DNA from: Candidatus Uhrbacteria bacterium
GTDB lineage: Bacteria; Patescibacteriota; Patescibacteriia; GWA2-47-26
Length of the DNA stretch: 64,000 nucleotides
Assembly (NCBI GenBank): GCA_016187515.1
Contig: JACPJN010000006.1
Coordinates: 856-64,855 of the forward strand
Direction: 5' to 3'
Positions 8,452 through 22,994 of the stretch are shown here, piece after piece; within the stretch, counting starts at the first letter, position 1; every line of letters begins with the position of its first letter. The notes beneath the pieces are model-generated. The model ran no database searches. It saw nothing but the letters and a program-made list of their open reading frames with translations, and was not told where the DNA came from. A program made the position numbers and the translations under genes.

Positions 8452-8469
8452 ATTCCGATCGGACGGTAC

Positions 8470-8530
8470 GGGGCAGGGAGTTTGGCAAGCTCCACGATTT
8501 GGCGGCCGTTGAGTTTTTGGCGGTTATATC
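8470..8530 (-). pseudogene. Remnant of the 3' end of a PPDK_N (PEP synthase/RPH N-terminal) gene
   Basis: About 50 bp (8478-8527) are near-identical (3 mismatches) to 21954-22003 inside the intact ATP-grasp gene. It encodes ...RQKLNGRQIVELAKL out of any long ORF. Confidence 0.5.
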
Positions 8531-8599
8531 CTGAAATCGTTGATATGCAATCCTCGCGGACCGGCAGCCCGAAGTAATGCCTTATCCGCTACATAGACT

Positions 8600-8854
8600 T
8601 TATCGGCCATACCGTGTATCACGCATGCGACGGATAAATTCAACAATACCGCCAGCGCGCGCACTGGCTTTTATTGCATCCTGCACTGCAATTGCCTCAT
8701 TCCAATGCCCTGTGCGATCTGCGCGATCATGTGTAAGTTGGTGGATGAGTTCGTGGAGAAATGTCTCTTGATCCTTTCCCGCTTGTTTTGCCGCACGATC
8801 CAACTCTTCCGCAAGCCGATGGGAAATAGTAATGGTTGCTTGTGTATTCTGCAT
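8600..8854 (-). CDS. Ribbon-helix-helix (CopG/ParD-like) small DNA-binding protein, possible orphan antitoxin
   Basis: 84 aa. The N-terminal TITISHRLAEELDRAAKQAGKDQETFLHELI fits a beta-strand plus helix RHH pattern. No cognate toxin ORF is adjacent. Confidence 0.35.
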   Translation of the reverse strand: MQNTQATITISHRLAEELDRAAKQAGKDQETFLHELIHQLTHDRADRTGHWNEAIAVQDAIKASARAGGIVEFIRRMRDTRYGR

Positions 8855-8889
8855 ACGATAATGATCGTATCATGCTATTACAAATTGTG

Positions 8890-10407
8890 TCAAATTTTCC
8901 GTACCATCCCCTTTACTGCATCAATCTCAACCCGATCACCGGTTTTTAACACCTTCGTTGCAATTCTGGTCCCGATGATGCAGGGAATCCCCAGTTCTCG
9001 CGAGACAATCGCGGCATGCGAGGTGAGTCCGCCTTCATCTGTGATTACCGCGCTGGCCTTATGCATGAGCGGCACAAATTCCGGCCGCGTCATGGTCGTG
9101 ACCAGAATTGCGCCGGCCTTAAAACGCGCGTTCGATACGTCGAGCACAACCTGCACGCGCCCTTGGAATGATTTGACCGGCAATGATGATGCAACCTGCC
9201 CTTGTATGGCAGCGGTCTTCTGCGCAGGAAACATTGTTTTCCACAGTTGTCGCGCGTCACGCCCCGTCAGCATGGCCTCCCGTTCCCCTTTGCCGCGCTT
9301 CCATGCTACATAGCATGAAAGCGTCCGCCGCTTACGCAATTGCGGCCGTCTTGGAATCACCCCGCGCATGAGTGCCGTTTGCACCTCCTCAATGGTCATA
9401 TATTTTACCTCCCGCACATTCATGCGCAACCGTCGTGAAATTTCGCGCGCATACTCTTCAAAGTATCGATCCGCAATAAGCGCGATGCGCTTGCGTTCAT
9501 CAACCCATCCTGACCAAAACGAAAGTAGCTCAAACGCGCGCTTTAGTTTTAAAGAGCATGGTAATGCAAGGCGCAATCGAGCTTGTTCCTTTTTCGTGCG
9601 CGCTATTTTTGCGCGGATGTCGCGCAACCCTCTGACCAGCTTCGCGCGAGTATTATTCTTAACCTCTAACCGCATCTCTTCCCAAAAATCTTGCGCGCCA
9701 AGCGCGCGGCTTTCCCGATAATTAGAACGCAGCCAGCTGTGGCCGCGCGCGAACGCCTCGAGTTGATTGCGAAAACGCTCTGGTAAACGCGGGTAGTTGT
9801 TGTACTTACGCAGCGCCGCATACCACTTCAGCATTATAGTGAGCACCCCTCCGCGCGCCTGTTGTATAAAACTTAGTTTAAGCGGCGAGGAAAGCGTAAA
9901 CGCAATATTATTTAAGCGTTCGTCAGTCAAGCCGGGAAATTCTTGCCTCATGAGCTTAGGAAGTTCGTAGGTCGTAAAAATGTCCGCGCTCTCTTGGACC
10001 CAGGTCATGCGCCAATGATCGCGCACTGCTTCATTAAAACGCAAAAAAGATAAGGCCAGCTCGCGATTACTCATTGTATTTTTTCTTCGAACCAGTCGCT
10101 TCCCCTCATTATGCAGCGTGCGAATAATTTCTCCCCATTTCTTATATTGGACGCGCTGACGTGATGGATTTTTGAGGTGTCGCATCCATACATAATTCCA
10201 AATTTTGAGTTTCTCGTCTTCGGGCGTTTCCTCAAAAACAAAATCATTTTTGAAAAAACACAAAATAATTGTCGGCAGCCGCGGATGCCAAAATTTTGAC
10301 TGCTCAATAAAGGCCCGCATCCATACGCAAAACATGGGCACGGCCGGCGCCTCTTCCGACCACCAAGTATGCTTTTTGATTTCTTCTATGACGAATGGCA
10401 ATTTCAT
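8890..10407 (-). CDS. RPH-like protein lacking ATP-grasp: variable N-terminus + central (substrate-binding-like) domain + C-terminal PEP-utilizer swivel phosphohistidine domain (paralogue 1)
   Basis: C-terminal GDILVTTMTRPEFVPLM...GGLTSHAAIVSRELGIPCIIGT matches the PEP-utilizers mobile domain with its catalytic His. The central W.DERK...Y region parallels the rifampin-binding domain of Listeria RPH. No GGKGxxL ATP-grasp motif is present. Confidence 0.7.
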   Translation of the reverse strand: MKLPFVIEEIKKHTWWSEEAPAVPMFCVWMRAFIEQSKFWHPRLPTIILCFFKNDFVFEETPEDEKLKIWNYVWMRHLKNPSRQRVQYKKWGEIIRTLHNEGKRLVRRKNTMSNRELALSFLRFNEAVRDHWRMTWVQESADIFTTYELPKLMRQEFPGLTDERLNNIAFTLSSPLKLSFIQQARGGVLTIMLKWYAALRKYNNYPRLPERFRNQLEAFARGHSWLRSNYRESRALGAQDFWEEMRLEVKNNTRAKLVRGLRDIRAKIARTKKEQARLRLALPCSLKLKRAFELLSFWSGWVDERKRIALIADRYFEEYAREISRRLRMNVREVKYMTIEEVQTALMRGVIPRRPQLRKRRTLSCYVAWKRGKGEREAMLTGRDARQLWKTMFPAQKTAAIQGQVASSLPVKSFQGRVQVVLDVSNARFKAGAILVTTMTRPEFVPLMHKASAVITDEGGLTSHAAIVSRELGIPCIIGTRIATKVLKTGDRVEIDAVKGMVRKI

Positions 10408-10452: not shown

Positions 10453-11859
10453 TTAGAGTTTCCTGACCATCCCGCGCTGCGCGTCAACTTCCACGTGATC
10501 GCCGGTTTTGAAAAGATGAGTCGCATGCACCGTGCCCGTGATACACGGAATTCCGAACTCGCGCGACATAATTGCCGCATGCACGGTTACTCCTCCTTCA
10601 TTAGTCACCACCCCGCCGGCCTTTTTCATGGCTAGCACAAAATCAGGGGTCGTCATGGAGGTAATTAGAATATCACCTTTCCGAATAAGACGCATGGCCT
10701 CTTTCGGATCATCCGTAACCACCGCGCGCCCTTTTGCATATCCGCGCGAGGCAATGACCCCCTTCACTTCCTGACGCGCCGTGTTCGGCATAGCCAGCTC
10801 TTGGTCAATCGCTTTCCACGCGGCCTGGCCATATTTTTCAAAAACTATTTTGCCCTGCTCAAACTTTGCGCAATATCCTCGCCGCCGCTTGGCAACAATC
10901 GCGCGCGGAAATTTTCCGGTTCTGATAAACTGTCTGGTCTCCTCTACTGTTAGCATTTGCACATCACGCATTGGCACCCTGTATCGCTTCGCCGCCGCCG
11001 TGCGCACCTCATCTATGGCATAAAGAGTCCGCATTTGAATTTCTTTGCGCTCATCATGCAATCGCGCGCAAGCATCCAGCACGCGCAAATACGGTTGTAT
11101 AATTTGCGCCGGAATTTTCCATTTGCGGATCATGGCTTGCCGCGCGTTGGCGATCTTTACGGCATACTGCAGCAACTCCACGCGTTTTTCTTTAACCTTC
11201 CGCATCTCTTTCAGTATATCGGCATGAGACAATGGTTTGGTTCCACTCCAACCCATGGTCAACCAAAAGTATTGCTTCCAAATCTCTCGGAGATCCAATC
11301 TCCGTAAGTTAGGAGATTGGATCTCTGCTTTGTATTGCATCACCACGCTGCGATACGCCGCTTGCTGCAAAATAGCCCAGTCCTCTTTATCTTCAACTAC
11401 CTGGCCATAACCGGCGCCACGCAACTGCTTTGCACATACTTCCGAAAAATAATCATCAAATGCGTCAATGGCAATGCCGAGCGTTCGCGTATGCAATAAA
11501 AGCAGTTCGTGTATCTTATCAAAACGCGCTAAAAGACCTTTGGCATCTTTTGGCAACGGCACATCCAGCAAGGCCAGCAGATATTTTCGGCACACTGCAT
11601 AACGCTCCCGCGCCGCTTTAAAAAAACTTCCTTCAGTGCCTTGAGTAATCCAGCGCTTGTTCCATTTCAAACCATTATCTCGGTATTCCGGCTGACCATA
11701 GCACCAATACAAATGCTCGTCTTTGAAACCAAAAAACGCGCGATCCACATTGTAGTATTCGCGCCCCTGGGCACCGCGCCGCTTAAACCAATCCGTGTGC
11801 GGCTCCAGCGCACTGAATATCGCGCCCCCGCGCTCATAGACTTTCCAATCAGTCCACAT
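10453..11859 (-). CDS. RPH-like central + swivel phosphohistidine domain protein (paralogue 2)
   Basis: C-terminus GDILITSMTTPDFVLAM...GGVTVHAAIMSREFGIPCITGT. Divergent N-terminal 150 aa. No ATP-grasp. Confidence 0.7.
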   Translation of the reverse strand: MWTDWKVYERGGAIFSALEPHTDWFKRRGAQGREYYNVDRAFFGFKDEHLYWCYGQPEYRDNGLKWNKRWITQGTEGSFFKAARERYAVCRKYLLALLDVPLPKDAKGLLARFDKIHELLLLHTRTLGIAIDAFDDYFSEVCAKQLRGAGYGQVVEDKEDWAILQQAAYRSVVMQYKAEIQSPNLRRLDLREIWKQYFWLTMGWSGTKPLSHADILKEMRKVKEKRVELLQYAVKIANARQAMIRKWKIPAQIIQPYLRVLDACARLHDERKEIQMRTLYAIDEVRTAAAKRYRVPMRDVQMLTVEETRQFIRTGKFPRAIVAKRRRGYCAKFEQGKIVFEKYGQAAWKAIDQELAMPNTARQEVKGVIASRGYAKGRAVVTDDPKEAMRLIRKGDILITSMTTPDFVLAMKKAGGVVTNEGGVTVHAAIMSREFGIPCITGTVHATHLFKTGDHVEVDAQRGMVRKL

Positions 11860-11892: not shown

Positions 11893-12513
11893 TCATCTCA
11901 GTCCCGCCACTGATTCTGCTATGGCACGTTTGATGATTCGTTCAAGTAAGCGGTAATCTCCATTATCTCCGGCTTGAAGCGCCTGAATATAACGATGTCT
12001 TCCGGATTTTGTTTCCACTTTAAGTTCAACAGGCGGCAGATCAAGGTTGAGCAAAATAATATTGATGAGCAAACGGGCCATACGACCGTTGTAATCTTGA
12101 AACGGATGAATCCAAAGGAAGCGGTGGTGTGCCCACGCAAGGAGTGTTATCAGCGCGCCTAAAAAATCTGGATTCTCAATTGAAGGCAGATGTCGCAAAC
12201 GCTCCTCAATATCACGACAAAAATCGAGCATAAGTTGGGGTACGATAAAAAATTTCGGCGGCTTATGATCAGAAACTTCAACGTCAACCGTGCGAAATCG
12301 ACCGCCAAGATCAGGAAAAATCCAACCAAAACCAACCCGGTGAATCTCGCGAAGAGAGTCCAAGGTAATAGAAATTCTGCCCGCAGCATGCATTTCCAAC
12401 ACAAAATCCCACGCCCGTTTAATTCCCTCTATCTCAAGCGGAATCAATTTTGAGCGCGGGATGATGCCAAACGCAGTGTCGCGGTAACTTGTTTCCCCTG
12501 GCCTGCGCGACAT
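11893..12513 (-). CDS. Fic/Doc family protein (AMPylation-type toxin-like) with variant motif HPFQDYNGRMAR
   Basis: Fic core motif HPFx(D/E)GNGRxxR is present with Gly->Tyr at the first Gly. The N-terminal LEIEGI stretch resembles a class II inhibitory xxxEG motif but lacks the S/T. Confidence 0.75.
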   Translation of the reverse strand: MSRRPGETSYRDTAFGIIPRSKLIPLEIEGIKRAWDFVLEMHAAGRISITLDSLREIHRVGFGWIFPDLGGRFRTVDVEVSDHKPPKFFIVPQLMLDFCRDIEERLRHLPSIENPDFLGALITLLAWAHHRFLWIHPFQDYNGRMARLLINIILLNLDLPPVELKVETKSGRHRYIQALQAGDNGDYRLLERIIKRAIAESVAGLR

Positions 12514-12764: not shown

Positions 12765-14501
12765 CTATATTTTTCTCACTGTCCCATTTTCTGCATCCAC
12801 CTCAACTATATCCCCATCCTTAAATACCTGCGTTGCCACTTTGGTACCCACAATGCAGGGCACGCCAAGCTCTCGTGAAACCACTGCCGCGTGGCTAGTC
12901 ATGCCGCCGGTGTCCGTTACAATCGCGGCGGCGCGTTTCATCACCATAATGTAATCCGGCGAAGTCATGCCCGTAACCAAAATATCGCCGTGCTTCATCC
13001 GTTGCAATTCTTTGTGCGGCGAAAAAATCAAACGCACTCTCCCGCGCACTTTTGGCCCACGGCTTACCGTGAGCCCATGCACTTCCTCCACTCCTTGATG
13101 CGCGCGTTTTTCAAAAGGCGCCAAAACTTTAAGCGCGGCTTTGCCGGTATATACTCGCGAATCGCCTTTTTCCCATTCTAAATGCATCACACTCACTTGC
13201 CGCGCTTTGGCCAGATCGCGCACATTGACCCTGGCACCCGATAATACTGCCTCAATTTCATCTGGCATCAAATCTTTGCACATCGTAAACGGCACTCGCG
13301 CGCGCCGCGCCACCTCATTCAAAAATATATCAATCGCATGATTGGCTTGCCACACATATTTTTTGCGTTCGTCTTGCCAACTAATGGTTTGTCCAAGTTT
13401 GCGCGCCACAGTTGCTTCCAATTTTGAAAAACCTAGTTTTTTGATCATCTGCTCTTTTGCGCGCGCCCGCTGTCGTGGGGCTTGCTCAATGGCGCGCATA
13501 CGCTCACTAATACTTCCTTTTTTTATTTCCTCTTTGAGCCGCTTTGCAAAATCCGCCGCGGTGAGTACGCGACTGCCATAATAACTGTTATACAGCCAAA
13601 AATATTTTCGCGCGTGCGCTGCCAGAGCTTTCCTTAGTTCTTTGTCATCAATAAATTCATAACTCCCCCTCCCCCCTCTTATCTTAAGAGGGGGTTTCGA
13701 TCGGTCTCCTCCCCTTAAGGTAAGGGGAGGCTGGGAGGGGCTATGCGCAATTGCAATCCTCAACAAATCCCGTTCCTCTTCTTGAAAAAATCCCAACTCT
13801 GCCGGCGCGCTTAAAACTTCAAGCGCATGCAGATATTCTTGACCAGCCAGTCCGCGCTTTTTAAGCGCGTCCATCAAAAACTTCTCCCCGCCCCAATTAG
13901 CCAGCTCCGGCACAGTGCCATGATTCCAAAAATCAAAATACGCTTCTTTCCACTGATGATAAAGCTTCGCGTAACTCCCCCTTATCCCAAGATGGGGTTT
14001 CGCTTGATCCCCCTCCCAAAAGGCGCGGGAGGGCTGGGGAGGGTTATGAAAAATCTGGTTCACGACTTGCTGATTTAGCGCGAGTAACTTTTCTACCGCC
14101 CGATCAAACCGCCGGCGCACCAACGCCTTCTTCTTATCCGGCAATATCCACTTTTCAAAAACGCGCCACCCGTCCTTGCGTAGCGCCTCCTGGTCACAAA
14201 TATAAGTCATCTTATGACGATTGAACGCAAAAAGCGCCTCGGGCCAATGCACGCCATAGGTTTTTGGAAACCGGTCAAAATAGGTCATGACCCAGTACGC
14301 AGGATACTGCCACGCCCCCTCAATCGGCCCCCAGACAAACAGTTCACGCTTGGGATTGATCATAATCACGATTACCCCTAATTCTATAATAAAAACTGCG
14401 GCTTGACAAGGAGAGGTAAATATGCTATGATGCGAGGATTCTGGATGATGAAGATGAATAGGACAACCTGCCCTTGCGCAAAGCTGCGCAAAGCAAGACA
14501 A
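12765..14501 (-). CDS. RPH-like central + swivel phosphohistidine domain protein (paralogue 3), carries two in-frame hairpin-repeat insertions
   Basis: C-terminus GDILVTGMTSPDYIMVM...GGMTSHAAVVSRELGVPCIVGT with central KYFWLYNSYYG and W.DERKKY motifs. In-frame inserts at 13663-13745 and 13973-14050 encode SQPPLTLRGGDRSKPPLKIRGGRGSYEF. Confidence 0.7.
   Translation of the reverse strand: MSCFAQLCARAGCPIHLHHPESSHHSIFTSPCQAAVFIIELGVIVIMINPKRELFVWGPIEGAWQYPAYWVMTYFDRFPKTYGVHWPEALFAFNRHKMTYICDQEALRKDGWRVFEKWILPDKKKALVRRRFDRAVEKLLALNQQVVNQIFHNPPQPSRAFWEGDQAKPHLGIRGSYAKLYHQWKEAYFDFWNHGTVPELANWGGEKFLMDALKKRGLAGQEYLHALEVLSAPAELGFFQEEERDLLRIAIAHSPSQPPLTLRGGDRSKPPLKIRGGRGSYEFIDDKELRKALAAHARKYFWLYNSYYGSRVLTAADFAKRLKEEIKKGSISERMRAIEQAPRQRARAKEQMIKKLGFSKLEATVARKLGQTISWQDERKKYVWQANHAIDIFLNEVARRARVPFTMCKDLMPDEIEAVLSGARVNVRDLAKARQVSVMHLEWEKGDSRVYTGKAALKVLAPFEKRAHQGVEEVHGLTVSRGPKVRGRVRLIFSPHKELQRMKHGDILVTGMTSPDYIMVMKRAAAIVTDTGGMTSHAAVVSRELGVPCIVGTKVATQVFKDGDIVEVDAENGTVRKI
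13663..13745. repeat. Inverted pair of hairpin units inserted in frame in paralogue 3
   Basis: TCCCCCTCCCCCCTCTTATCTTAAGAGGGGG...CCTCCCCTTAAGGTAAGGGGAGGCTGGGAGGGGCTATG. Confidence 0.85.
13973..14050. repeat. Degenerate inverted pair of hairpin units in paralogue 3
   Basis: AACTCCCCCTTATCCCAAGATGGGG...CCCCTCCCAAAAGGCGCGGGAGGGCTGGGGAGGGTTATGA. Confidence 0.75.
14403..14431 (+). promoter_or_regulatory. Near-consensus sigma-70 promoter (TTGACA-17nt-TATGAT) upstream of the creatininase-family gene
   Basis: TTGACA at 14403-14408, a 17-nt spacer, then TATGAT at 14426-14431. The leader to ATG 14556 is ~120 nt. Confidence 0.55.
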
Positions 14502-14555
14502 ACCAAAAGGAGACGTACCTTGAGCAACCTACGTAATACAACCGTCACCGGACGC

Positions 14556-15347
14556 ATGAGCTGGGGAGAAGTCGAAGCAGTAATTCGAGGCGACAAGCAA
14601 GCATACGGTAGCTGTTTCGCGGTCTGGGGATGGGGTTCGCAAGAACAGCACGGCCCGCGCATGCCGCTGGACACCGATGCGCTCATCGCCGAACACTTCG
14701 CGCAACTAATCGCGCGAGAGCGACATGTCCTCCAGTTCCCCACGGTTCCGATCGGCATGAGCCGGCACCACGAGGCCTTCCCAGGCACGGTCTCGCTCTC
14801 GCAAGAAGCGGCCTACGGGGTCGCCGCCTCGGTCCTGCGCTCGCTTCACCGTATGGGCGTGACTCACCTGTTCGCGCTCATGGGACATGGTGGCAATGTC
14901 AACCCGTTCCACGCCGCAGTCCAGGGCCTAGGCAAGGAGATCGCTGGTCTCACGGTCTGCGAGCCGCTGGATGCACTGTTCTACACGACCGAAGGTGAAC
15001 TGGGCGAGCTCCTGAACTCCTTCGGCGAGACGGTCAGTCACGCAGGCGCGGCCGAGTGCTCCATCATCTACGCGATCATGGACGACCACGAACGAAGGGT
15101 GGACATCGCCGATCTGAACGCGGTCAAGATCACCGACGACATGGTGACCTTGGGCGGTCACGGCGTCGGAACCCAGGGCGGTAACCCCGAGGCCTTCCGC
15201 CAGATGTTTCCCTACGGCTCCAAGGGCGACCAGCGCAAGTCGGACACCACAAGAGGCCGCCGAATGCTCCACCTCATGGAGCAAGCACTACTGGCCAAGT
15301 TCGACGAGTTCGTGACACCCACCCTAGCCACGACTCGACGACAATAA
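14556..15347 (+). CDS. Creatininase-family amidohydrolase (creatinine amidohydrolase/MftE-like fold)
   Basis: Sequence WGWGSQEQHGPRMPLDTDALIAEHFA...LMGHGGNV fits the creatininase family. Start taken at ATG 14556 (MSWGEV...). It is the only plus-strand gene in this block and is markedly GC-rich. Confidence 0.6.
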   Translation: MSWGEVEAVIRGDKQAYGSCFAVWGWGSQEQHGPRMPLDTDALIAEHFAQLIARERHVLQFPTVPIGMSRHHEAFPGTVSLSQEAAYGVAASVLRSLHRMGVTHLFALMGHGGNVNPFHAAVQGLGKEIAGLTVCEPLDALFYTTEGELGELLNSFGETVSHAGAAECSIIYAIMDDHERRVDIADLNAVKITDDMVTLGGHGVGTQGGNPEAFRQMFPYGSKGDQRKSDTTRGRRMLHLMEQALLAKFDEFVTPTLATTRRQ

Positions 15348-15403: not shown

Positions 15404-16249
15404 TCATATCTTATTATTCGCCATCGCCACGGCGTGCACGATGTGCCAGAAATAATCTTTTTCATTGCGGGTGCCGTCTTCGTAGACAACGCCAAGATCA
15501 AGGTAGGGACACGCCAGGCAATTCCAACCGCCCAGATACAACAGGGCTTTGAACCAAGCATTTCCCACCAGCCCCATGGAAGGGACAATAAGCGTGGCGC
15601 CGTCCCACACCGCGGTCTCATACTCAAAATAATATTCCTTCGTATCATATCCTCGCCCGCGTAAATATTCCGCCAGTTGCGTATTGATTGCCGCTATATC
15701 ATCCAGCAATGGGTATTTGCCAACTTTGCTGGTGGGCCGCAAACTGGACATCACGCCGATCTTTGGCTTTAACCCTAAATCCTCCTCCATGTAGCGAATC
15801 AGGCGATCAATTTCATATTTTTTGTCCTCCAAAGTATGCCCCTGATAAATTGAACTCGTGCTGGCCACGAAACAGTACTGATCCTTCTGCAATATTCCCG
15901 GACACACTTTGCGATTGGAAGGCAATGGCTCTTTTCCAAATTGCCTGTGAAACTCATCAAGTGTAAATGAATCTTTGACTTGCCCGCGCACAATTCCGTC
16001 CACTTTGCCCTCTTTGAGCAAGCCAATCAATTTTACGCTGGCTTGATCCTGATCTTCCTCAACCACATTTTCAAATCCTTCCACTTTTGCGCCGACCACG
16101 ACAAGATTGGCATATTGAGATGCGCGCCGCAAACTTTCTACCGTTTCGGGAATCGGCCGCATAATACCAATCGCGATTTTGCGCTTTTGCCTTTTCGCGC
16201 GGTCAAGGAAAAGCTGTTGAATAGGATGTAAGTTATTCATCATATGCAT
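15404..16249 (-). CDS. Hypothetical protein; weak resemblance to phosphate acyltransferase (PTA/PTB-like) fold
   Basis: 281 aa. KIAIGIMRP...LVVVGAKVEGFENVV...DGIVRGQV has an arrangement similar to phosphotransacetylase/phosphobutyryltransferase N-terminal regions. This rests only on motif-level similarity. Confidence 0.3.
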   Translation of the reverse strand: MHMMNNLHPIQQLFLDRAKRQKRKIAIGIMRPIPETVESLRRASQYANLVVVGAKVEGFENVVEEDQDQASVKLIGLLKEGKVDGIVRGQVKDSFTLDEFHRQFGKEPLPSNRKVCPGILQKDQYCFVASTSSIYQGHTLEDKKYEIDRLIRYMEEDLGLKPKIGVMSSLRPTSKVGKYPLLDDIAAINTQLAEYLRGRGYDTKEYYFEYETAVWDGATLIVPSMGLVGNAWFKALLYLGGWNCLACPYLDLGVVYEDGTRNEKDYFWHIVHAVAMANNKI

Positions 16250-16252
16250 ATT

Positions 16253-17011
16253 TTACACCTCCACTCCTTGGGTTTCCACCAGATTGCCATCCTTGTCAAA
16301 GGTAAACATTTCGCAAAACTTTGGCGCATCTTCCGCGATCGCTTCTCGGCCTAATTTTTCATACCGGATTTGTCCAAGCGCGCCGCTGTGTCCGGCGCCA
16401 AACAATACTACCGGTACTGTATCGCTCGTAATTTTTTCGCGTAAAGTACGCACGACTTGCCGATACCTCTGCGCTGATTCTGCCGGATGAATTGCCGGGT
16501 CAGTGCGCGGCACTATTCTATTCATTTCATTTAGCCAGCGCGCCACTGCCTCGGCTTCGCTAATCCCGTCTCTGGCCATCATCTCCGCAAACGGCGTCCA
16601 GGTTTTATCGCTGGAGTCGGCCATGAGTTTTACCAGCTCTTCTTCGTCTACCTGCAGCATATCAACTCTTTTGGCGCCCTCCCCATGTTCCTTTTTGTCC
16701 CGCGCTTCCCGCTGGGCAATGCGCGCGGTGGCCAGCGCGCGAGTAAGTTGCGCGCGATCTTTTCCGCTATCAATGCTTACAAACACGCTTTGCTTAGGCA
16801 GTGACTCAAAAAGCGCGTCGCCCAATCGCAAACTGCGTTGAATCCCGTCCAGTTTAAGCGGGGTTTCAGTAAGCCCTTTAAATTCACTTTTCAACACTGA
16901 CAAAACCAACTCCGCCTCCTCTGGCGGAAGTTCAACACGCAATTCTTGCTCATCAATTTGCCACTTCCCTTTATCCGCATGCCGGACGATAATTGATTCT
17001 CCTTCTGGCAT
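16253..17011 (-). CDS. Hypothetical protein (possible histidine-phosphatase-like motifs IIVRHADKG ... GAGHSGALG)
   Basis: 252 aa with clear protein-like composition. An N-terminal RHA motif and a C-terminal GHSG resemble the two-His arrangement of histidine phosphatases but are not conclusive. Confidence 0.3.
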   Translation of the reverse strand: MPEGESIIVRHADKGKWQIDEQELRVELPPEEAELVLSVLKSEFKGLTETPLKLDGIQRSLRLGDALFESLPKQSVFVSIDSGKDRAQLTRALATARIAQREARDKKEHGEGAKRVDMLQVDEEELVKLMADSSDKTWTPFAEMMARDGISEAEAVARWLNEMNRIVPRTDPAIHPAESAQRYRQVVRTLREKITSDTVPVVLFGAGHSGALGQIRYEKLGREAIAEDAPKFCEMFTFDKDGNLVETQGVEV

Positions 17012-18562: not shown

Positions 18563-18925
18563 CTAAAAAGGTTTCTTTTTTACAACGCGTTTCTTTTTTG
18601 ATACACCTTTTTTCATTTCTCGCGCTCCAGTTAATGCCTCAAGGTATCCCCCACGCCCAAAGCTCAACCAGCGCTCTACGCGTGAAATAGTCGCTGGTCC
18701 GCAATTCAATCGATCAATAATATCCTTGTAGGTAGCCCCCTGCAGCAGCATATCTGCAATCATAAGGCGCCGGATTAACATCAAACGTTCCTGTCTATTC
18801 AAGAGATCTTTGAGAAAGTTGTGAATCGACTGCTTGGTTTTGAGATCACAAAGGGTTTTACAAAACCAATCCATGAGCCGATCTTGGGTATTATAAGGTA
18901 TTCGCTTTTCATTATATCGCGCCAT
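18563..18925 (-). CDS. TrpR-like protein, YerC/YecD family
   Basis: 120 aa. LNRQERLMLIRRLMIADMLLQGATYKDIIDRLNCGPATISRVERWL matches the Trp-repressor-like YerC/YecD HTH. It ends in a Lys-rich basic tail. Confidence 0.7.
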   Translation of the reverse strand: MARYNEKRIPYNTQDRLMDWFCKTLCDLKTKQSIHNFLKDLLNRQERLMLIRRLMIADMLLQGATYKDIIDRLNCGPATISRVERWLSFGRGGYLEALTGAREMKKGVSKKKRVVKKKPF

Positions 18926-19174
18926 ATATTTGAGTACACTTCTATGCTACATAGCATGGAAGTGTACCATTATTTCAATTTTCTCACAATCCCCCGCTCC
19001 GCGTCAACCCCAGCACCAAAGCCCAAAGGAAAATCGTGGTGAATGGAGGTGCGAGCCACGGATTCCGCCTACGGCTACGACTATTGTATTCAAGGTTCCG
19101 GCTGCGGCTTGGTGCGGGGCAGGCCTCCACCCAATCGCCGTCTTTGAAAATTTTAGTAGCGATTTTGGTGACGA

Positions 19175-19456
19175 TCAGAATAACCGCCGCAACCTATCAT
19201 AAAAATTCTCGCGTGGACCTACAAGATGGATGATCACTAGTTTCTGCATCGCTTCAATTGTATATGCCACTCGATACTGCACATTTTGAAACTTAAAGTG
19301 GAAGGAAAACAAAAAAGAGAGCGAGCCGTGAAGCTTCTCTCCGGTATGCGGATTAGTAATCAACATCTCGGTCGCCTTGAGCAATTCCTGCTCGGCATCG
19401 CGCGAAAGTCGTTTGAGCGACTTTTTCGCCGATGGCGTAATAACCCTCCTAAACAT
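19175..19456 (-). CDS. Type II toxin, RelE/ParE family
   Basis: 93 aa with the RelE/ParE pattern (ITPSAKKSLKRL...KLHGSLSFLFSFHFKFQNVQYRVAYTIEAMQKLVIIHLVGPRENFY). The antitoxin ORF lies immediately upstream. Confidence 0.75.
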   Translation of the reverse strand: MFRRVITPSAKKSLKRLSRDAEQELLKATEMLITNPHTGEKLHGSLSFLFSFHFKFQNVQYRVAYTIEAMQKLVIIHLVGPRENFYDRLRRLF

Positions 19457-19468
19457 ACCCCGCGCTTG

Positions 19469-19696
19469 TTATCGTCCTACGGCATCTTCAAGCGGCTCAA
19501 ACATTCCGGCCTCCGCCTCCTCCAGGCTTTTTTCAACGGTCTCCATTGCATTACTATCAAGAAGCAACGCCAGCGTTTCGCGTTCAGTAGCGGAAAGCGT
19601 AGGACGCAGGGTCTTAATAGTGATCACCGCCTCCCTCGCCTTTTCAAAAGTATAAGGATGGGGATGGTTATGGATAGTAGTTGCACTTGGATTCAT
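19469..19696 (-). CDS. Type II antitoxin (RelB/ParD/Phd-like) paired with RelE/ParE toxin
   Basis: 75 aa, acidic C-terminus, 12-nt gap to the toxin gene, same strand. This is the typical antitoxin-first arrangement. Confidence 0.6.
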   Translation of the reverse strand: MNPSATTIHNHPHPYTFEKAREAVITIKTLRPTLSATERETLALLLDSNAMETVEKSLEEAEAGMFEPLEDAVGR

Positions 19697-19757: not shown

Positions 19758-20639
19758 TTACTCCACATTTTGTACCGGATGCTGCTGCCTATACAAATCA
19801 ACAAGTTCAAGCAAGCGCTTTTGATCTATATCATACTCTTTCCCGCGAAACTTCAATTTCATATCCATCCGCCCTTTCTCATCTCGTTTAATATCAATTT
19901 CAACTGCCTCACCCGGCTTAACCATCCCGCCAATCTCCTCTAATTTTTCAAATCCGCGCGTCCCATCTTTTTTTAAAAGCACCTCTTTCAAAAACGCTAC
20001 CAGTTTTGGCCCATGGGTCAAATTTTCAAACCGCACATCCAAACCCTCATATAATTTTCCGGACATATTGACACCCACTGTCAACCGGTGCGCCATCTCC
20101 GCCGCAATATCTTCCAGGGCTGGCGCCCCAAGGTCACGAGTTTTATTCTGATTCGCGAGCCACCAATCCACAACTGCGGGCAATTCTTTTGCCACGCCTT
20201 CTTGTCTGGCCGCGCCTCTGATAATCGAAAATCCTTTCTCTGGGTCAAGATCACCTGATCGGTAAATGACCACATCCCCAGGCGGTATTTTTCCGTGTCC
20301 CATCTTTTCTTGCTGCTCCCCGCTCATTTCACGATTTACAATCGCGGCCGCGCCTGCCTCATCGCGAAAAGAGCCAAGCATATGCCCTCCGCTCTCACGA
20401 GCGCGTTTTACTCCTCTGCTTCCCGCTACCATCAAATACGCGTCCTGCGGAAGCTCGCGGCCGGTCTTTTTTGCCAACTCAACGCCCGCTTCAGTTAAAA
20501 AATCCATAGGAGTTCCGGCTTTCTCGTCTATGCCCGGCTGTTCATGCCGCCGGAATACGAATTTAACATTCACGTTTTTTCCGCGTTCGCGGCCTTCTTG
20601 CCGCGCCTCGCGGTATGCTTCCTGAAATCGCTTAAACAT
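19758..20639 (-). CDS. Hypothetical protein (293 aa)
   Basis: Long ORF with balanced composition. The FRRHEQPG and MGHGKIP motifs are suggestive but not diagnostic of a His-phosphatase-type fold. Confidence 0.35.
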   Translation of the reverse strand: MFKRFQEAYREARQEGRERGKNVNVKFVFRRHEQPGIDEKAGTPMDFLTEAGVELAKKTGRELPQDAYLMVAGSRGVKRARESGGHMLGSFRDEAGAAAIVNREMSGEQQEKMGHGKIPPGDVVIYRSGDLDPEKGFSIIRGAARQEGVAKELPAVVDWWLANQNKTRDLGAPALEDIAAEMAHRLTVGVNMSGKLYEGLDVRFENLTHGPKLVAFLKEVLLKKDGTRGFEKLEEIGGMVKPGEAVEIDIKRDEKGRMDMKLKFRGKEYDIDQKRLLELVDLYRQQHPVQNVE

Positions 20640-20751
20640 ATAATGAATAGTGTGTTAGACGTTAGGATGATATTATATCACAGGCAGACATCCTTTGTAG
20701 TTATATGCACTGTCGAACTATATCATGGATCAGTGCATGTGCAGGAGAACA

Positions 20752-21783
20752 CTATTTGATTATCCGTACAATTCCTTTAATCGCATCTACTTCTACTTGC
20801 TGGCCATCACGCAAAACTTTCGTTGCGATTTTGGTGCCGATGACGCAGGGTTTTTTAAGCTCACGAGCGACAATCGCGGCATGGCAAGTAATTCCTCCCT
20901 CGTCAGTCACAATCGCCGCGGCTTTCTTGACCGCGGCTATCAGCCGAGGTGTAGTCATTATAGAAACTAATATTTCCCCTCTCTTCATTTGATGCATCTG
21001 CGCGTCGGTATTTACAATGCGTACACGGCCCTGTACACGGCCGGGCGATGCACACATACCCTTGAGTTCACGCAATATCACGATCTTTTCCTTTGATAAT
21101 TCTTTTGCTTCAATTACACGCGCTTTTTTCCCGGTATAAAGAAACATCTTGCCATGCTTCAAAAGCAACACATAGTAGTAACGCCGCTGTTTTAGAACAT
21201 CTTTAGACAATCTTTTTCCGGACTGTAATAGCTGCAAAAATTCTTCTGGGAGATAGTACAGTACATCATTTTTTGCTACATCGTGCTTTCTGGCAATCCT
21301 CATTAATACCGGTCGCAGCCGATCCCATGCTTGACATGTTGCAACCTCTGCCTTCTCATGCCAATGTCCTACTGTTTTTAGTTCATGTGCAGTAGATTTT
21401 TCTAGCAGTTTAGCTAATCCTTCGGTATAAAAAACAATCGCGCGACCGAGTTGATAATCATGAATAAATTGAGAGAGAGTTTCATGGTTTTGCTGCCTGG
21501 AGAATTTCTTTGTTGAATTGCTAAGATGTATCAAAATTTCTTTCCAGAAAGGTAAAAATTTGTTAAGATACTGCCGTTTATATTCTGATTCAATAATAGC
21601 AAGGCGCCGGTTTGTTTCAGGAATATGAACATACAAGGCAGTCAATCCGTCACGATTCACAGTTAGCAAATTTCGCACATGTACTTGTGAATGACTACCA
21701 AACATCTCGCGATATCCCGCGACTCGTAAATATCTTTCGAATAGGGCTGTTTCTCTTGTGACAAGCAGCTGCCATTTTTTCAT
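20752..21783 (-). CDS. RPH-like central + swivel phosphohistidine domain protein (paralogue 5), directly downstream of the stand-alone ATP-grasp gene
   Basis: C-terminus GEILVSIMTTPRLIAAV...GGITCHAAIVARELKKPCVIGT. Together with 21852..22994 it recreates the RPH/PpsA domain order split at the domain boundary. Confidence 0.7.
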   Translation of the reverse strand: MKKWQLLVTRETALFERYLRVAGYREMFGSHSQVHVRNLLTVNRDGLTALYVHIPETNRRLAIIESEYKRQYLNKFLPFWKEILIHLSNSTKKFSRQQNHETLSQFIHDYQLGRAIVFYTEGLAKLLEKSTAHELKTVGHWHEKAEVATCQAWDRLRPVLMRIARKHDVAKNDVLYYLPEEFLQLLQSGKRLSKDVLKQRRYYYVLLLKHGKMFLYTGKKARVIEAKELSKEKIVILRELKGMCASPGRVQGRVRIVNTDAQMHQMKRGEILVSIMTTPRLIAAVKKAAAIVTDEGGITCHAAIVARELKKPCVIGTKIATKVLRDGQQVEVDAIKGIVRIIK

Positions 21784-21851
21784 AGTGTCGTAATCGGCCT
21801 ACTCTGCACCCCGCACCAGAACAAGTTCGATGCGGGGCAGGCAATATAAAA

Positions 21852-22994
21852 TTATAGAGTAGTTATGGGTCTACTCTGAACAATAAAAAATTTATTTCGC
21901 TCAAGACACCATTCCACATCACATGGAAAGCCATAGTGTTTTTCGATTTTGGCGCAGAGTTTGGCCAGCTCCACGATTTGGCGGCCGTCGAGTTTTTGGC
22001 GGTGGAGGAATTTTGTGGGGACAGCGATTTCGCGCGTGCCGCCCGATTCGGCTCCCCTCTTAAGGTAAGAGGGGCTGGGGGAGTTATGAGAAGTTCGTAA
22101 CCCCTCCTGACCTCCCCTTACCCTAAGGGGAGGAACGCCACGACGTACAATCATCTTTTTCTGCTCGGATACGCTCACATCAATCAAACTCCAATCCCTT
22201 TTGTCTATAACATACGCGTCCGGCGTTACTTGCCCGCCGACCAGCGCCTCGCCTAATCCCCAGCACGCCTCAATAATCATTTGGTGTTTATCTTTAGTCA
22301 CCGGATGCACCGTAAAGCATACGCCCGCAATTTCCGACTGCACCATTTTTTGCACCACCACCGCCACAGATACATGCGACTTGTGCATGCCTTTTTCATT
22401 GCGATACACCAACGCACGAGGAGTAAACAGCGATGACCAGCACTGCTTCACATTGCCCAAAAGCACCTTCTCCGTGGTGTTCAAATATGACTCAAGCTCC
22501 CCTGCCCACGAGGCCTGCGAAGAATCCTCGGCCGTGGCTGACGAACGGACAGCAACAAACAAATCCCCCTCCCTTAAGGTAAGGGAGGGCTGGGGAGGGT
22601 TATGAGCGTTCCCGTCCGAGGCGGACAGGCGTAACCCCTCCCGACCTCCCCTTACTCTAAGGGGAGGAGATTGTTTAGCAAGCGCACGATACGCACCCAA
22701 TATCTCCTCTTGCAAATCCTTGGGCATCCGCTCGTCGTGGATCAGATCACGAATCGTTTCCGAAGCATGCTCTACGCGGTGGATGTCTTTGTAGTTAAGC
22801 TCATGCACGATGGAGTCAACCTCAACTTTCAAATCCGTCTCCTGCAAAAACCGCTCAAACGCGCTGGCAGTTACCACAAACCCCGGCGGTACCGCAATCC
22901 CCGCCTTAGTCATCTCCCCCAGCGACGCCCCTTTGCCTCCCGCAATATGCACGTCCTTTTTGGAAAGCTCTTTGAAAAATTTTATGTGCTGCAT
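21852..22994 (-). CDS. Stand-alone PPDK_N-type ATP-grasp domain (PEP synthase/rifampin phosphotransferase N-terminal nucleotide-binding domain), two in-frame hairpin-repeat insertions
   Basis: Classic N-terminus MQHIKFFKELSKKDVHIAGGKGASLGEMTKAGIAVPPGFVVTASAFERFL and C-terminal ...HYGFPCDVEWCLERNKFFIVQSRPITTL. In-frame inserts at 22051-22135 and 22565-22670. Confidence 0.8.
   Translation of the reverse strand: MQHIKFFKELSKKDVHIAGGKGASLGEMTKAGIAVPPGFVVTASAFERFLQETDLKVEVDSIVHELNYKDIHRVEHASETIRDLIHDERMPKDLQEEILGAYRALAKQSPPLRVRGGREGLRLSASDGNAHNPPQPSLTLREGDLFVAVRSSATAEDSSQASWAGELESYLNTTEKVLLGNVKQCWSSLFTPRALVYRNEKGMHKSHVSVAVVVQKMVQSEIAGVCFTVHPVTKDKHQMIIEACWGLGEALVGGQVTPDAYVIDKRDWSLIDVSVSEQKKMIVRRGVPPLRVRGGQEGLRTSHNSPSPSYLKRGAESGGTREIAVPTKFLHRQKLDGRQIVELAKLCAKIEKHYGFPCDVEWCLERNKFFIVQSRPITTL
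22051..22135. repeat. Inverted pair of hairpin units in the ATP-grasp gene
   Basis: GCTCCCCTCTTAAGGTAAGAGGGGCTGGGGGAGTTATGAG-spacer-TAACCCCTCCTGACCTCCCCTTACCCTAAGGGGAGG. Confidence 0.85.
22565..22670. repeat. Inverted pair of hairpin units in the ATP-grasp gene (second insertion)
   Basis: CCCCCTCCCTTAAGGTAAGGGAGGGCTGGGGAGGGTTATGAGCG...GTAACCCCTCCCGACCTCCCCTTACTCTAAGGGGAGG. Confidence 0.85.

What the first reader, a model, noticed from the sequence alone, without database searches (positions are those of the whole stretch)
8455..22994. Array of five diversified 'substrate-domain + swivel phosphohistidine' paralogues sharing a single stand-alone PPDK_N ATP-grasp: a split, multiplexed rifampin-phosphotransferase-like system
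Seen in sequence: five minus-strand genes (8890-10407, 10453-11859, 12765-14501, 17036-18520, 20752-21783) all end in a PEP-utilizer mobile domain with the catalytic His (T[SC]HAA[IV]VSRELG[IV]PC[IV][IV]GT). All share a central helical region with KYFW..N.Y and W.DERK..Y motifs, and their N-terminal ~150 aa are unrelated to each other. None has the GGKGxxLGEM ATP-grasp signature. Exactly one gene (21852-22994) encodes a complete PPDK_N ATP-grasp ending in ...FIVQSRPITTL, and it sits immediately upstream of paralogue 5, split precisely at the domain boundary. A ~50-bp remnant of a second ATP-grasp gene 3' end lies at 8478-8527. Established knowledge: the order ATP-grasp, then substrate-binding domain, then C-terminal swivel His domain is the architecture of rifampin phosphotransferase (RPH), not of PEP synthase or PPDK, which carry a C-terminal PEP/pyruvate TIM barrel. 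Motif-level alignment to Listeria RPH is visible (GYREYPKY ~ WQDERKKY; GDILVTAYTDPSW ~ GDILVAVMTRPDY). Inference: one ATP-grasp module may charge, in trans, several swivel-domain proteins whose divergent substrate domains target different small molecules or proteins. This would be an expanded antibiotic/xenobiotic phosphotransferase battery. The island also carries Fic, RelE/ParE and TrpR-like genes, consistent with an accessory region.
Basis: partly seen in the sequence, partly recalled or inferred. Interest (0 to 1): 0.85.

Follow-up and report, generated by a model that had tools for sequence, protein, structure and literature searches.

The report
One ATP module, many phosphate-carrier kinases
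This stretch of a Candidatus Uhrbacteria (CPR) genome encodes one stand-alone ATP-binding module and five diverged partner proteins that resemble rifampin phosphotransferase cut in two, and the same "one-to-many" gene arrays, apparently undescribed, recur across ultra-small CPR bacteria and DPANN archaea.

Summary
Five minus-strand genes end in a PEP-utilizers swivel domain with the catalytic His. Exactly one gene is a stand-alone PPDK_N ATP-grasp ("G"), ending at ...QSRPITTL.

The arrangement is not a local oddity or an accessory island. Related loci from many CPR bacteria and DPANN archaea carry co-directional arrays of up to 12 or more S genes. They hold zero or one stand-alone G, never two, plus recurrent HAD and histidine phosphatases and PTA-like genes.

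Fused G+S proteins exist elsewhere, which links the two parts functionally. One-to-one split relatives are already characterised (HpeHI, CreHI, PpsAB). The one-to-many layout was not found in the literature searched.

Charging of all S proteins by G in trans is inferred, and the substrates are unknown. Conserved orthologues and the gene context argue against an antibiotic-resistance battery. Fusions of S to DNA-binding and nucleotidyltransferase domains suggest metabolite salvage and/or sensing.

- The N-termini are homologous.
- par5 is a conserved short form that lacks both quoted motifs.
- Extra gene remnants exist.

The parts
21852..22994 (-). G: stand-alone ATP-grasp (PPDK_N) subunit, 380 aa, ending ...QSRPITTL. 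It carries two in-frame palindromic-repeat insertions.
   Evidence: Pfam PF01326 E 2.8e-95. Best PDB matches are PEP synthase 8a8e (E 1e-69) and the RPH ATP-grasp 5hv6 (E 8e-54). Alignment with stand-alone homologues shows the common C-terminus and two insertions, shared only with L005.
20752..21783 (-). S5 (par5): short-form substrate domain plus swivel His domain, 343 aa
17036..18520 (-). S4 (par4): substrate domain plus swivel, 494 aa. This is the most widely conserved subfamily.
12765..14363 (-). S3 (par3): substrate domain plus swivel, about 532 aa from the ATG at 14363 (the ORF is open back to the TTG at 14501). Contains palindromic-repeat insertions.
   Evidence: PF00391 E 4e-27. Start position inferred. 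73% identical orthologue in L005. Repeats at 13667-13730 and 14007-14049.
10453..11859 (-). S2 (par2): substrate domain plus swivel, 468 aa
   Evidence: PF00391 E 2.4e-24. The nearest relative among the fetched loci is 37% identical, in L013.
8890..10407 (-). S1 (par1): substrate domain plus swivel, 505 aa
   Evidence: PF00391 E 5.1e-26. Orthologues at 41-45% identity in L013, L005 and L006.
19758..20639 (-). Histidine-phosphatase (PGAM-like) superfamily protein; a recurrent companion of the arrays
   Evidence: Matches an HMM of the array-associated family c5 at E 8.7e-13. The family profile hits PGAM-type phosphatases in the PDB at E 8e-8, with invariant R31, H32 and R79.
15404..16249 (-). 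Phosphotransacylase (PTA)/MtxX-like protein; a recurrent companion in CPR arrays. A canonical PTA takes its place in DPANN arrays.
   Evidence: The family profile hits MtxX 9nzy at E 4e-19 and PTA/PTB structures at E 4e-4 to 9e-3. Present in 6 loci; PTA is present in 12.
16253..17011 (-). Conserved protein of unknown function lying between S4 and the PTA-like gene
   Evidence: Homologues sit in the same position in L005 (87% identity) and L025 (46% identity). No Pfam match.
18563..18925 (-). TrpR-like HTH gene 43 nt upstream of S4; a possible regulator of the cluster
   Evidence: PF01371 E 2.4e-14. A homologue lies in the L005 array. In other genomes, HTH domains of four kinds are fused directly to S proteins.
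18973..19178 (-). Remnant of a sixth S gene (3' end of the swivel domain, interrupted), abutting the ParE toxin gene
   Evidence: Repeat family D3. The translation reads LIVTKIATKIFKDGDWVE. tblastn matches to the C-termini of par1-5.
21780..21809 (-). Second copy of the last 9 codons plus stop of a G gene (VQSRPITTL*). Its TGA overlaps the S5 ATG (ATGA).
   Evidence: It differs from the live G 3' end only at synonymous positions and in the stop codon (read from the sequence printed).
8478..8524 (-). 47-nt remnant of a G gene (codons about 331-346) at the far end of the array
   Evidence: 45/47 nt identical to 21957-22003. tblastn gives 83% identity over 18 aa.
11893..12513 (-). Fic-domain gene; a secondary insertion, not part of the conserved cluster
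   Evidence: PF02661 E 1.2e-15. No homologue in L005.
19175..19696 (-). ParE-like toxin plus an upstream small gene (putative antitoxin); a secondary insertion
   Evidence: PF15781 E 2.5e-21. No homologue in any related locus.

Best explanation
The region encodes a split, multiplexed member of the rifampin-phosphotransferase-like branch of the PEP-synthase/PPDK dikinase superfamily.

**Components**
- One subunit (G, 21852-22994) is only the ATP-grasp.
- Five other proteins (S1-S5) each consist of an RPH-like helical substrate-binding domain followed by the mobile phosphohistidine "swivel" domain.

**Proposed mechanism**
1. G binds ATP and, in trans, pyrophosphorylates the conserved His of an S swivel domain. 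The gamma-phosphate is lost as Pi and AMP is released.
2. The swivel domain returns to its own substrate domain and hands the beta-phosphate to a bound small molecule.
3. Each S subunit, with its diverged substrate domain, serves a different substrate, and all draw on the same G.

**Wider setting**
[quoted passage not shown] It carries toxin-antitoxin and Fic insertions and remnants of S and G genes.
- That cluster also holds HAD and histidine phosphatases and phosphotransacylase-like proteins.

**What is shown and what is inferred**
- Shown: domain content, fold, the conserved split, the one-to-many gene ratio, and the existence of fusions.
- Inferred: trans-charging of all S by G, and small-molecule substrates.
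- Guess: the substrates are endogenous or scavenged metabolites such as cofactor precursors, rather than antibiotics.
For: **Domains and fold**
- Domain assignments.
- RPH is the only full-length structural match for both models.
- Sequence homology to RPH extends about 70 residues upstream of the swivel.
- The His motif is present in 305 of 310 long and 27 of 31 short family members.

**The split is ancient and constant**
- All stand-alone G proteins end at QSRPITT(L).

**One-to-many ratio**
- Of 80 related loci, 56 hold at least 2 S genes and 40 hold at least 5, with a maximum of 12 in my census. Gene calls show 15 PEP-utilizers genes in the 21-kb locus L003.
- 26 loci show a stand-alone G. 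None shows two. The median is 6 S genes beside it.
- 360 of 362 S/G genes are co-directional.
- G lies within 80 nt of an S gene in 14 of 26 loci, sometimes overlapping it.

**Control**
- 27 loci anchored on canonical fused PEP synthases had no S-only gene in 26 cases and one in the other. Seven anchored on a stand-alone G had 0-6.

**Functional link between G and S**
- Rosetta-stone fusions of PPDK_N + this substrate domain + swivel exist (P0252, 803 aa; also L052 and L061).

**Shared constraint on the swivel**
- Swivel domains are 45-57% identical among the window paralogues, against 18-29% in the substrate domains.

**Biochemical precedent**
- HpeHI, CreHI and PpsAB need both components. 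The H subunit alone transfers phosphate between substrates, and mutating its His abolishes activity (PMC12167813).
Against: - No biochemical or co-folding evidence that G charges any of S1-S5, let alone all five.
- Only a 64-kb window of this genome was seen, so other G genes could exist elsewhere in it.
- Some stand-alone G genes have no S gene within 10 kb, and many arrays show no G within 10 kb.
- The only G here carries two repeat-derived insertions of uncertain effect.
- Two G remnants and one S remnant show the locus is in flux.
- No test for genome-specific co-adaptation was positive. Swivel identity is 54.1% within loci and 53.2% between loci.
- The substrate class is unsupported beyond context.
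Confidence: 0.65

Rival explanations
1. A PTS-like signalling fan. G acts like an ATP-driven "enzyme I" that keeps many S proteins phosphorylated. Each S is mainly a ligand sensor whose phosphorylation state (discharged when its ligand is present) controls gene expression or partner proteins, rather than a metabolic kinase. This overlaps with the best explanation and is not exclusive of it.
For: - Four different kinds of DNA-binding domain are fused to the N-terminus of S proteins in different genomes: HTH_3/XRE, HTH_26/Cro, MerR/HTH_17 and ArsR-like wHTH.
- A receiver (response-regulator) domain lies between two S modules in P0183.
- A TrpR-like HTH gene sits 43 nt upstream of S4 here, and a homologue lies in L005.
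- Histidine-phosphatase-superfamily genes recur in the arrays. That superfamily includes the phosphohistidine phosphatase SixA, which the family profile matches weakly.
Against: - Most S proteins, including all five here, have no DNA-binding domain.
- Bifunctional enzyme-repressors would explain the fusions equally well.
- All characterised relatives are enzymes.
Confidence: 0.15
2. One reading: an expanded antibiotic/xenobiotic-inactivating phosphotransferase battery on an accessory island.
For: - RPH is the closest solved structure.
- The substrate domains are highly diverged.
- Fic and toxin-antitoxin genes lie in the region.
- A resistome survey counted rph-like hits in CPR genomes (PMC8651080).
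Against: - The cluster is syntenic with a related Uhrbacteria genome and conserved across two domains of life.
- par4 and par5 belong to well-conserved orthologous subfamilies.
- RPH model scores are far below their cut-offs: 63-71 bits against 999 for NF041857.
- The companions are phosphatases, PTA-like proteins and nucleotidyltransferases, not resistance genes.
- Fic and ParE were not found in the closest relative's locus.
Confidence: 0.1
3. S proteins work without G, or only the adjacent S5 pairs with it. The other S proteins would take phosphate from a different donor, or act as non-catalytic phosphocarrier or regulatory proteins like the C-terminal swivel domain of Geobacillus pyruvate kinase.
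For: - Some S genes lie far from any G. For example, in L083 two S genes lie among PGK, enolase, iPGM, ACS and POR genes with no G in view.
Against: - No PEP-binding domain accompanies the arrays.
- G+S fusions exist.
- G and S genes are co-directional and often overlap.
- Characterised split relatives need both components.
Confidence: 0.08
4. Artefact or decay: fragments of ordinary pps/ppdk genes produced by frameshifts or mis-assembly.
For: Remnants of G and S genes do exist in the window.
Against: - The five S ORFs and G are intact, and the two S models folded with pLDDT 94-95.
- The same split, at the same residue, is found in dozens of independent assemblies from bacteria and archaea.
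- No S protein contains a PEP/pyruvate TIM barrel.
Confidence: 0.02

Closest known systems
Two-component small-molecule dikinases: HpeHI (Rhodococcus), CreHI (Corynebacterium), PpsAB phenylphosphate synthase (Thauera/Aromatoleum) and AcvAB (Sphingobium)
   Same: - A separate ATP-grasp subunit, plus a subunit that combines an RPH-like substrate-binding domain with the C-terminal swivel His domain.
- Dikinase chemistry: ATP gives AMP + Pi + phospho-substrate.
- The swivel subunit alone can exchange phosphate between substrates (PMC12167813).
   Different: - Those systems are one-to-one gene pairs in aromatic-catabolic operons of free-living Proteobacteria and Actinobacteria, and they act on phenolics.
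- Here one G sits with five S genes (up to 12 or more elsewhere), in CPR/DPANN genomes.
- No aromatic-catabolism genes were identified among the neighbours. The companions are phosphatases and PTA-like proteins.
- NCBIfam models of 600-aa proteins with a C-terminal swivel (PRK08296) match only the swivel part, well below their cut-offs.
Rifampin phosphotransferase (RPH; PDB 5hv1, 5fbs)
   Same: - Same domain order once G and S are joined.
- The same fold for the substrate domain and swivel, and for the ATP-grasp.
- Fused G+S relatives of this family exist.
   Different: - RPH is a single polypeptide of about 865 aa.
- Identity is 17-19% in the structural alignments.
- NCBIfam RPH scores are far below their cut-offs.
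- The rifampin-binding residues were not assessed.
PEP synthase / pyruvate phosphate dikinase
   Same: By sequence, PEP synthase is the best match for both G and the swivel domains. The phosphohistidine mechanism is the same.
   Different: There is no PEP/pyruvate-binding TIM barrel in any S protein or elsewhere in the arrays. The swivel is C-terminal, not central.
Fatty-acid kinase FakA with several FakB binding proteins, and PTS enzyme I feeding many carriers (analogies recalled from general knowledge, not tested here)
   Same: The logic of one nucleotide- or energy-coupled module serving several exchangeable substrate-binding partners.
   Different: The folds and chemistry are unrelated (Fak). 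The PTS uses PEP as donor and separate HPr/EII carriers. No homology is implied.

Membership tests
Rifampin phosphotransferase (RPH) | Single polypeptide with ATP-grasp, then substrate (RIF-binding) domain, then C-terminal swivel domain | tested here: not met
   The ATP-grasp is a separate 380-aa protein. The S proteins have no PPDK_N domain.
Rifampin phosphotransferase (RPH) | Substrate-binding domain with the RIF-BD fold, docked to a swivel domain carrying the catalytic His | tested here: met
Rifampin phosphotransferase (RPH) | Score above the curated NCBIfam cut-offs (NF041857 999 bits; NF000283 1700 bits) | tested here: not met
   S proteins score 63-71 bits (NF041857) and 46-60 bits (NF000283). 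G scores 262 and 177 bits.
Rifampin phosphotransferase (RPH) | Second-site phosphate network Arg666/Glu667/Lys670 (PMC4844700) | tested here: inconclusive
   A D-E-R-K motif sits in a long helix of par1-4 but not par5, and in 103 of 310 long family members. No residue-level superposition was available.
Rifampin phosphotransferase (RPH) | Phosphorylates rifamycins | not testable with these tools
   Needs biochemistry.
Two-component RPH-like dikinases (HpeHI/CreHI/PpsAB) | Separate ATP-grasp subunit of about 300-390 aa | tested here: met
   G is 380 aa (about 310 aa without its two insertions). Homologues are 280-390 aa.
Two-component RPH-like dikinases (HpeHI/CreHI/PpsAB) | Partner subunit is a substrate-binding domain plus a swivel with an essential His | tested here: met
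   Whether the His is essential was not tested.
Two-component RPH-like dikinases (HpeHI/CreHI/PpsAB) | One ATP-grasp gene paired with one partner gene | tested here: not met
   One G with five S genes here. The median is 6 S genes beside a single G in 26 related loci.
Two-component RPH-like dikinases (HpeHI/CreHI/PpsAB) | Close sequence kinship of the partner subunits (about 45% identity among HpeH, CreH and PpsA) and an aromatic-catabolic context | tested here: inconclusive
   No HpeH, CreH or PpsA sequence was at hand. The PRK08296-type models align only to the swivel. No carboxylase or aromatic-catabolism gene was identified among the neighbours examined.
PEP synthase / PPDK | C-terminal PEP/pyruvate-binding TIM-barrel domain | tested here: not met
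   No such domain in the S proteins. An HMM of the PEPS C-terminal domain finds it only in the fused proteins of L037 (E 1e-114) and, weakly, L027. It finds none in the window or the other arrays.
PEP synthase / PPDK | Score above the NCBIfam PEP synthase cut-offs (598 and 740 bits) | tested here: not met
   G scores 326 and 319 bits. S proteins score 105-123 bits.

The most novel reading that the evidence does not exclude
CPR bacteria and DPANN archaea share a hallmark ATP-driven phosphohistidine distribution system. A single ATP-grasp "charger" feeds a fan of up to a dozen or more substrate-specific S modules. Together these replace many conventional small-molecule kinases for trapping and activating metabolites scavenged from hosts, for example cofactor precursors that are then passed to nucleotidyltransferases. 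Some S modules would double as phosphorylation-gated transcription factors. This would be a new organising principle for metabolism and sensing in ultra-small symbionts, with cross-domain gene sharing.
Probability: 0.3. Interest if true: 0.88.

Novelty: new variant of a known kind. Interest (0 to 1): 0.72.

Why it matters
**Biological significance**
- CPR and DPANN organisms make up a large share of microbial diversity, have minimal metabolism, and are mostly uncultured.
- A conserved multi-gene cluster that is expanded to 5-12 or more paralogues in genomes this small must be important to them. Yet it is annotated only as "PEP-utilizing enzyme", "hypothetical protein" or "phosphoenolpyruvate synthase/pyruvate phosphate dikinase".

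**Annotation consequences**
- Those names can create false gluconeogenesis (pps) calls in metabolic reconstructions.
- They can also create false rph resistance calls in resistome surveys.

**Why it is tractable**
- Recognising the cluster as a one-to-many split dikinase gives a directly testable biochemical system: mix G with each S and ATP, then screen metabolites.
- It offers a natural example of a modular kinase platform with one shared ATP module.
- It is another gene family shared between the two ultra-small radiations.

Tried and rejected
- **Exact-sequence look-up of G** in the contig index found nothing. Context was obtained through par4 and par5 homologues instead.
- **Foldseek against AFDB50** was not available, so no comparison with predicted structures of PpsA, HpeH or PigC.
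- **Concerted evolution or co-adaptation of swivel domains with the resident G:** no signal. Identity is 54.1% within loci and 53.2% between loci.
- **Profile test for N-terminal homology** among the window paralogues was too weak to decide. The structure models and the library-wide search settled it instead.
- **Promoter and terminator scan:** uninformative.
- **Metagenome scan anchored on G** mostly returned canonical fused PEP synthases. These were used as a negative control rather than as new arrays.
- **Split PEP synthase with a separate TIM-barrel subunit:** rejected, because no such gene is in the arrays.
- **Assembly or frameshift artefact:** rejected.
- **Horizontally acquired island:** composition is unremarkable and synteny with L005 is conserved.
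- **Literature searches** for a prior description of the arrays found none. They returned only the one-to-one two-component dikinases and a resistome survey counting rph-like hits.
- **Substrate clues, kept only as leads:**
  - RibH/RibE lie near the array here and in two other loci.
  - RibL-like nucleotidyltransferase genes sit next to, or are fused to, S genes.
  - Glycolysis genes lie next to a par5-like pair.

Full report
**Source and gene content.**
The window comes from a Candidatus Uhrbacteria (CPR/Patescibacteria) genome. The par4 protein is 100% identical to NCBI [quoted passage not shown], on a 355,817-bp contig.

Pfam finds only PF00391 (PEP-utilizers, the mobile phosphohistidine domain) in the five paralogues, always at the C-terminus, with E 5e-26 to 2e-24. 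It finds a complete PF01326 PPDK_N domain (E 2.8e-95) in 21852-22994. A six-frame motif scan finds five GGxTxHAA sites and one GGKGASLGEM site in the whole 64 kb. An HMM/phmmer census of all ORFs of at least 90 aa gives five swivel-only genes, one grasp-only gene and no fused gene. I call the ATP-grasp protein G and the others S1-S5 (par1-par5).

**Remnants.**
- A sixth S gene survives only as a broken 3' end at 18973-19178, abutting a ParE toxin gene.
- A second copy of the last nine codons of a G gene (VQSRPITTL, then TGA) lies at 21780-21809, and its stop overlaps the S5 start codon (ATGA).
  - It differs from the live G terminus only at synonymous sites and in the stop codon (read from the sequence printed).
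  - This suggests that a G gene once translationally coupled to S5 was replaced by recombination.
  - L005, the closest relative, also has an extra G 3' fragment.

**What the S proteins are.**
- By sequence, PDB matches of par4 cover only the swivel domain, and the best are PEP synthases.
- A profile of the par4 family extends the match to Listeria rifampin phosphotransferase (RPH) over residues 319-489 against RPH 700-866. That is about 70 residues into the substrate domain. NCBIfam models of the RPH/PigC/RedH type behave likewise, all far below their cut-offs.
- No S protein contains a PEP/pyruvate TIM barrel.
- An HMM of that domain, built from canonical PEP synthases, finds it nowhere in the window or in related arrays. 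The only hits are one genuine PEP synthase in L037 and a weak match in L027.
- So S is an RPH-like substrate-binding domain plus swivel. G resembles the ATP-grasp of PEP synthase (E 1e-69) and of RPH (E 8e-54).

**Corrections to the sequence-level claims.**
- Among the window paralogues, the swivel domains are 45-57% identical. The central region is 18-29% identical and the N-terminal region about 20%.
- The N-termini are nevertheless homologous.
  - A search with par4 residues 1-385 (no swivel) against 1.84 billion representatives finds 1,245 clusters at E <= 1e-3 and 472 at E <= 1e-10.
  - Many of these align over query residues about 5-380 at 23-28% identity.
- The two models share the same N-terminal strand-helix-strand-strand element. 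par5 lacks an internal block of helices instead.
- par5 is not a local truncation. It belongs to a conserved subfamily of 343-347 aa at 41-78% identity.
- The KYFW..N.Y motif is clear only in par2-4. DERK is in par1-4 but not par5, and in only a third of long family members.
- par3 most likely starts at the ATG at 14363.

**The arrangement is widespread.**
Looking up two par4 homologues showed arrays at once. L001 has eight PEP-utilizers-only genes plus one PPDK_N gene. L003 has 15 PEP-utilizers genes in 21 kb.

The best 78 loci come from two groups:
- many CPR lineages: Uhr-, Kerfeld-, Magasanik-, Taylor-, Moranii-, Falkow-, Nealson-, Doudna-, Berkel- and Parcubacteria;
- DPANN archaea: Woese-, Nano-, Micr- and Iainarchaeota.

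Some TPA bin labels, such as "Gammaproteobacteria" or "Methanosarcinales", are probably unreliable.

My census of these loci gave:
- 56 of 80 loci hold at least 2 S genes, 40 hold at least 5, and the maximum is 12.
- 26 loci show a stand-alone G. None shows two. The median is 6 S genes beside a G.
- 360 of 362 S/G genes are on the majority strand of their locus.
- In 14 of 26 loci, G lies within 80 nt of an S gene, sometimes overlapping it by 3-7 nt.
- Every stand-alone G ends at QSRPITT(L). In fused PEP synthase, this is where the linker to the swivel starts.

As a control, a metagenome scan was anchored on G. The 27 loci of at least 12 kb that hold a canonical fused PEP synthase had no S-only gene in 26 cases and one in the other. 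Seven loci with a stand-alone G had 0-6.

Fused proteins with PPDK_N + this family's substrate domain + swivel also occur (P0252, 803 aa; L052 and L061). This is Rosetta-stone evidence that G and S act together.

**Diversity of the S family.**
The 341 S proteins of the loci fall into 192 clusters at 35% identity in the substrate domain. par4 sits in the one large group, which is the family used as the query. par1, par2 and par3 have orthologues only in near relatives, and 30%-identical relatives in DPANN loci. There is no genome-specific homogenisation of swivel domains: identity is 54.1% within loci and 53.2% between.

**Companions.**
Clustering the neighbouring ORFs shows recurrent partners:
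- a HAD hydrolase (16 loci), often paired with a protein family that proves to be a histidine phosphatase of the PGAM superfamily (profile against PDB E 8e-8; invariant R, H, R). The window's 19758-20639 belongs to this family (E 8.7e-13);
- canonical phosphotransacetylase (PF01515, 12 loci, mostly DPANN-labelled);
- a PTA/MtxX-like family (6 CPR loci) that includes the window's 15404-16249 (MtxX 9nzy, E 4e-19);
- a hexapeptide acyltransferase with two unknown families, in DPANN loci;
- a RibL-like cytidylyltransferase-family protein (4 loci), which is fused to an S protein in L015.

The window's gene order is G, S5, phosphatase..., S4, unknown, PTA-like, creatininase, S3..., S1. This matches the Uhrbacteria relative L005. 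Fic and ParE were not found in L005. Base composition shows no island. The cluster is therefore core and conserved, and the toxin-antitoxin and Fic genes are later insertions.

**Clues to function.**
- In other genomes, S proteins carry N-terminal DNA-binding domains of at least four kinds: XRE HTH_3, Cro-type HTH_26, MerR/HTH_17 and ArsR-like winged helix.
  - About 10 of the 120 best par4 homologues are around 590-600 aa, and the members examined carry such an N-terminal extension.
  - In the window, a TrpR-like HTH gene lies 43 nt upstream of S4.
  - This points to S proteins that couple ligand or phosphorylation state to transcription, or to bifunctional enzyme-repressors.
- The nucleotidyltransferase fusion and neighbours suggest that at least one S makes a phosphorylated small molecule that is then nucleotidylated. 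The RibH and RibE genes at 25873-27006 also lie near arrays in L009 and L040. Together these make riboflavin to FMN to FAD one concrete but unproven candidate.
- A par5-like pair in L083 lies in a run of PGK, enolase, iPGM, PfkB, ACS and POR genes. In L084, another par5-like gene is followed by a HAD phosphatase.

None of this fixes a substrate.

**Comparison with what is known.**
RPH works by a swivel mechanism. His825 takes the beta-phosphate of ATP at the ATP-grasp and delivers it to rifampin in the RIF-binding domain (PMC4844700).

Split one-to-one versions are characterised: HpeHI, CreHI and PpsAB. In these:
- both components are needed;
- the H subunit alone exchanges phosphate between substrates;
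- its His is essential;
- an AlphaFold model places the swivel at the ATP site of the separate grasp subunit (PMC12167813).

So the split is not new. What I could not find described is the one-to-many organisation and its conservation across CPR and DPANN. One resistome survey merely counts rph-like hits in CPR genomes.

I therefore rate it a new variant of a known kind. It works like a two-component RPH-type dikinase, but it fails the one-to-one pairing, context and score criteria for membership of the characterised groups.

**Mechanism and confidence.**
- Shown: domain composition, fold, conserved split point, gene ratio, co-directionality and overlaps, and fusions.
- Inferred: G charges each S in trans, and each S phosphorylates its own small-molecule substrate.
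- Guess: the substrates are endogenous or scavenged metabolites rather than antibiotics.
- Caveats:
  - Only 64 kb of this genome was seen.
  - G carries two repeat-derived insertions, at sites shared only with L005.
  - Some G and S genes elsewhere are not adjacent.

Noticed in passing
window 540-664, 13667-13730, 14007-14049, 22052-22135, 22564-22670, 27352-27436, 32580-32841, 35099-35124, 36313-36343, 37961-37987, 55960-56051: A GC-rich palindromic hairpin repeat (CCTCCCCTTA-NNN-TAAGGGGAGG and variants) occurs 18 times in the window, against about 0.1 in shuffles, and usually in pairs. 13 of the 18 copies lie in frame inside long ORFs, including G and par3, where they encode PPL(R/K)(V/I)RGG-like peptides. 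L005 has insertions at the same two sites of G but with different sequence. This is reminiscent of Rickettsia palindromic elements (my recollection, not tested).
   Followed up: partly
window 21780-21851: Between the G stop and the S5 start lie a possible hairpin (CCCCGCA, a 15-nt loop, TGCGGGG) and a second copy of the G 3' end. That copy differs from the live one only at synonymous sites, and its stop overlaps the S5 ATG. It looks like the scar of a G gene replacement.
   Followed up: partly
window 18973-19178 and 19175-19696: A sixth S gene is reduced to a broken swivel 3' end directly beside a ParE-like toxin and a small upstream gene. An RHH-like 84-aa gene (8600-8854) lies next to the 47-nt G remnant, and its L005 homologue also lies next to a G 3' fragment. 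Small toxin-antitoxin-type genes therefore seem to accompany breakpoints in the array.
   Followed up: partly
P0130, P0063, P0093; L016:9707-11482, L079:3139-4812, L082:4727-6400, L046:2014-3789; P0183: In other genomes, S proteins are fused N-terminally to DNA-binding domains (XRE HTH_3, Cro HTH_26, MerR/HTH_17, ArsR-like wHTH). One protein, P0183, has a response-regulator receiver domain between two S modules.
   Followed up: partly
L015:8013-9944; c15 genes in L003, L022, L024 and L071; window 25873-27006: A RibL-like cytidylyltransferase/FAD-synthetase-family domain is fused to an S protein in L015 and is encoded next to S genes in four other loci. Lumazine synthase and riboflavin synthase genes lie about 3 kb from G in the window, and near arrays in L009 and L040. 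This is a possible lead to a riboflavin-to-FMN-to-FAD role for one S.
   Followed up: no
L083:10001-12115: A par5-type S gene and a second short S gene sit in a run of PGK, enolase, two iPGM, PfkB and acetyl-CoA synthetase genes upstream, with pyruvate:ferredoxin oxidoreductase genes downstream. No G is within 10 kb.
   Followed up: no
L045:13301-14731; c13 genes in L011, L014, L020 and L045: In DPANN loci, an unknown family of about 320 aa (c13) is encoded immediately after G. In L045, G itself (476 aa) contains an inserted segment matching that family (E 7e-41), suggesting a physical partner of G.
   Followed up: no
names attached to homologues; PMC8651080: Public sources name these S proteins "phosphoenolpyruvate synthase/pyruvate phosphate dikinase", "Pyruvate, water dikinase" or "PEP-utilizing enzyme", and a CPR resistome survey counts rph-like hits. 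Such labels could mislead metabolic and resistome inferences for CPR/DPANN.
   Followed up: no
window 14403-15347 (+): A creatininase-family gene (PF02633, E 3e-44) lies on the opposite strand inside the array. It is conserved at the same place in L005 (82% identity).
   Followed up: no
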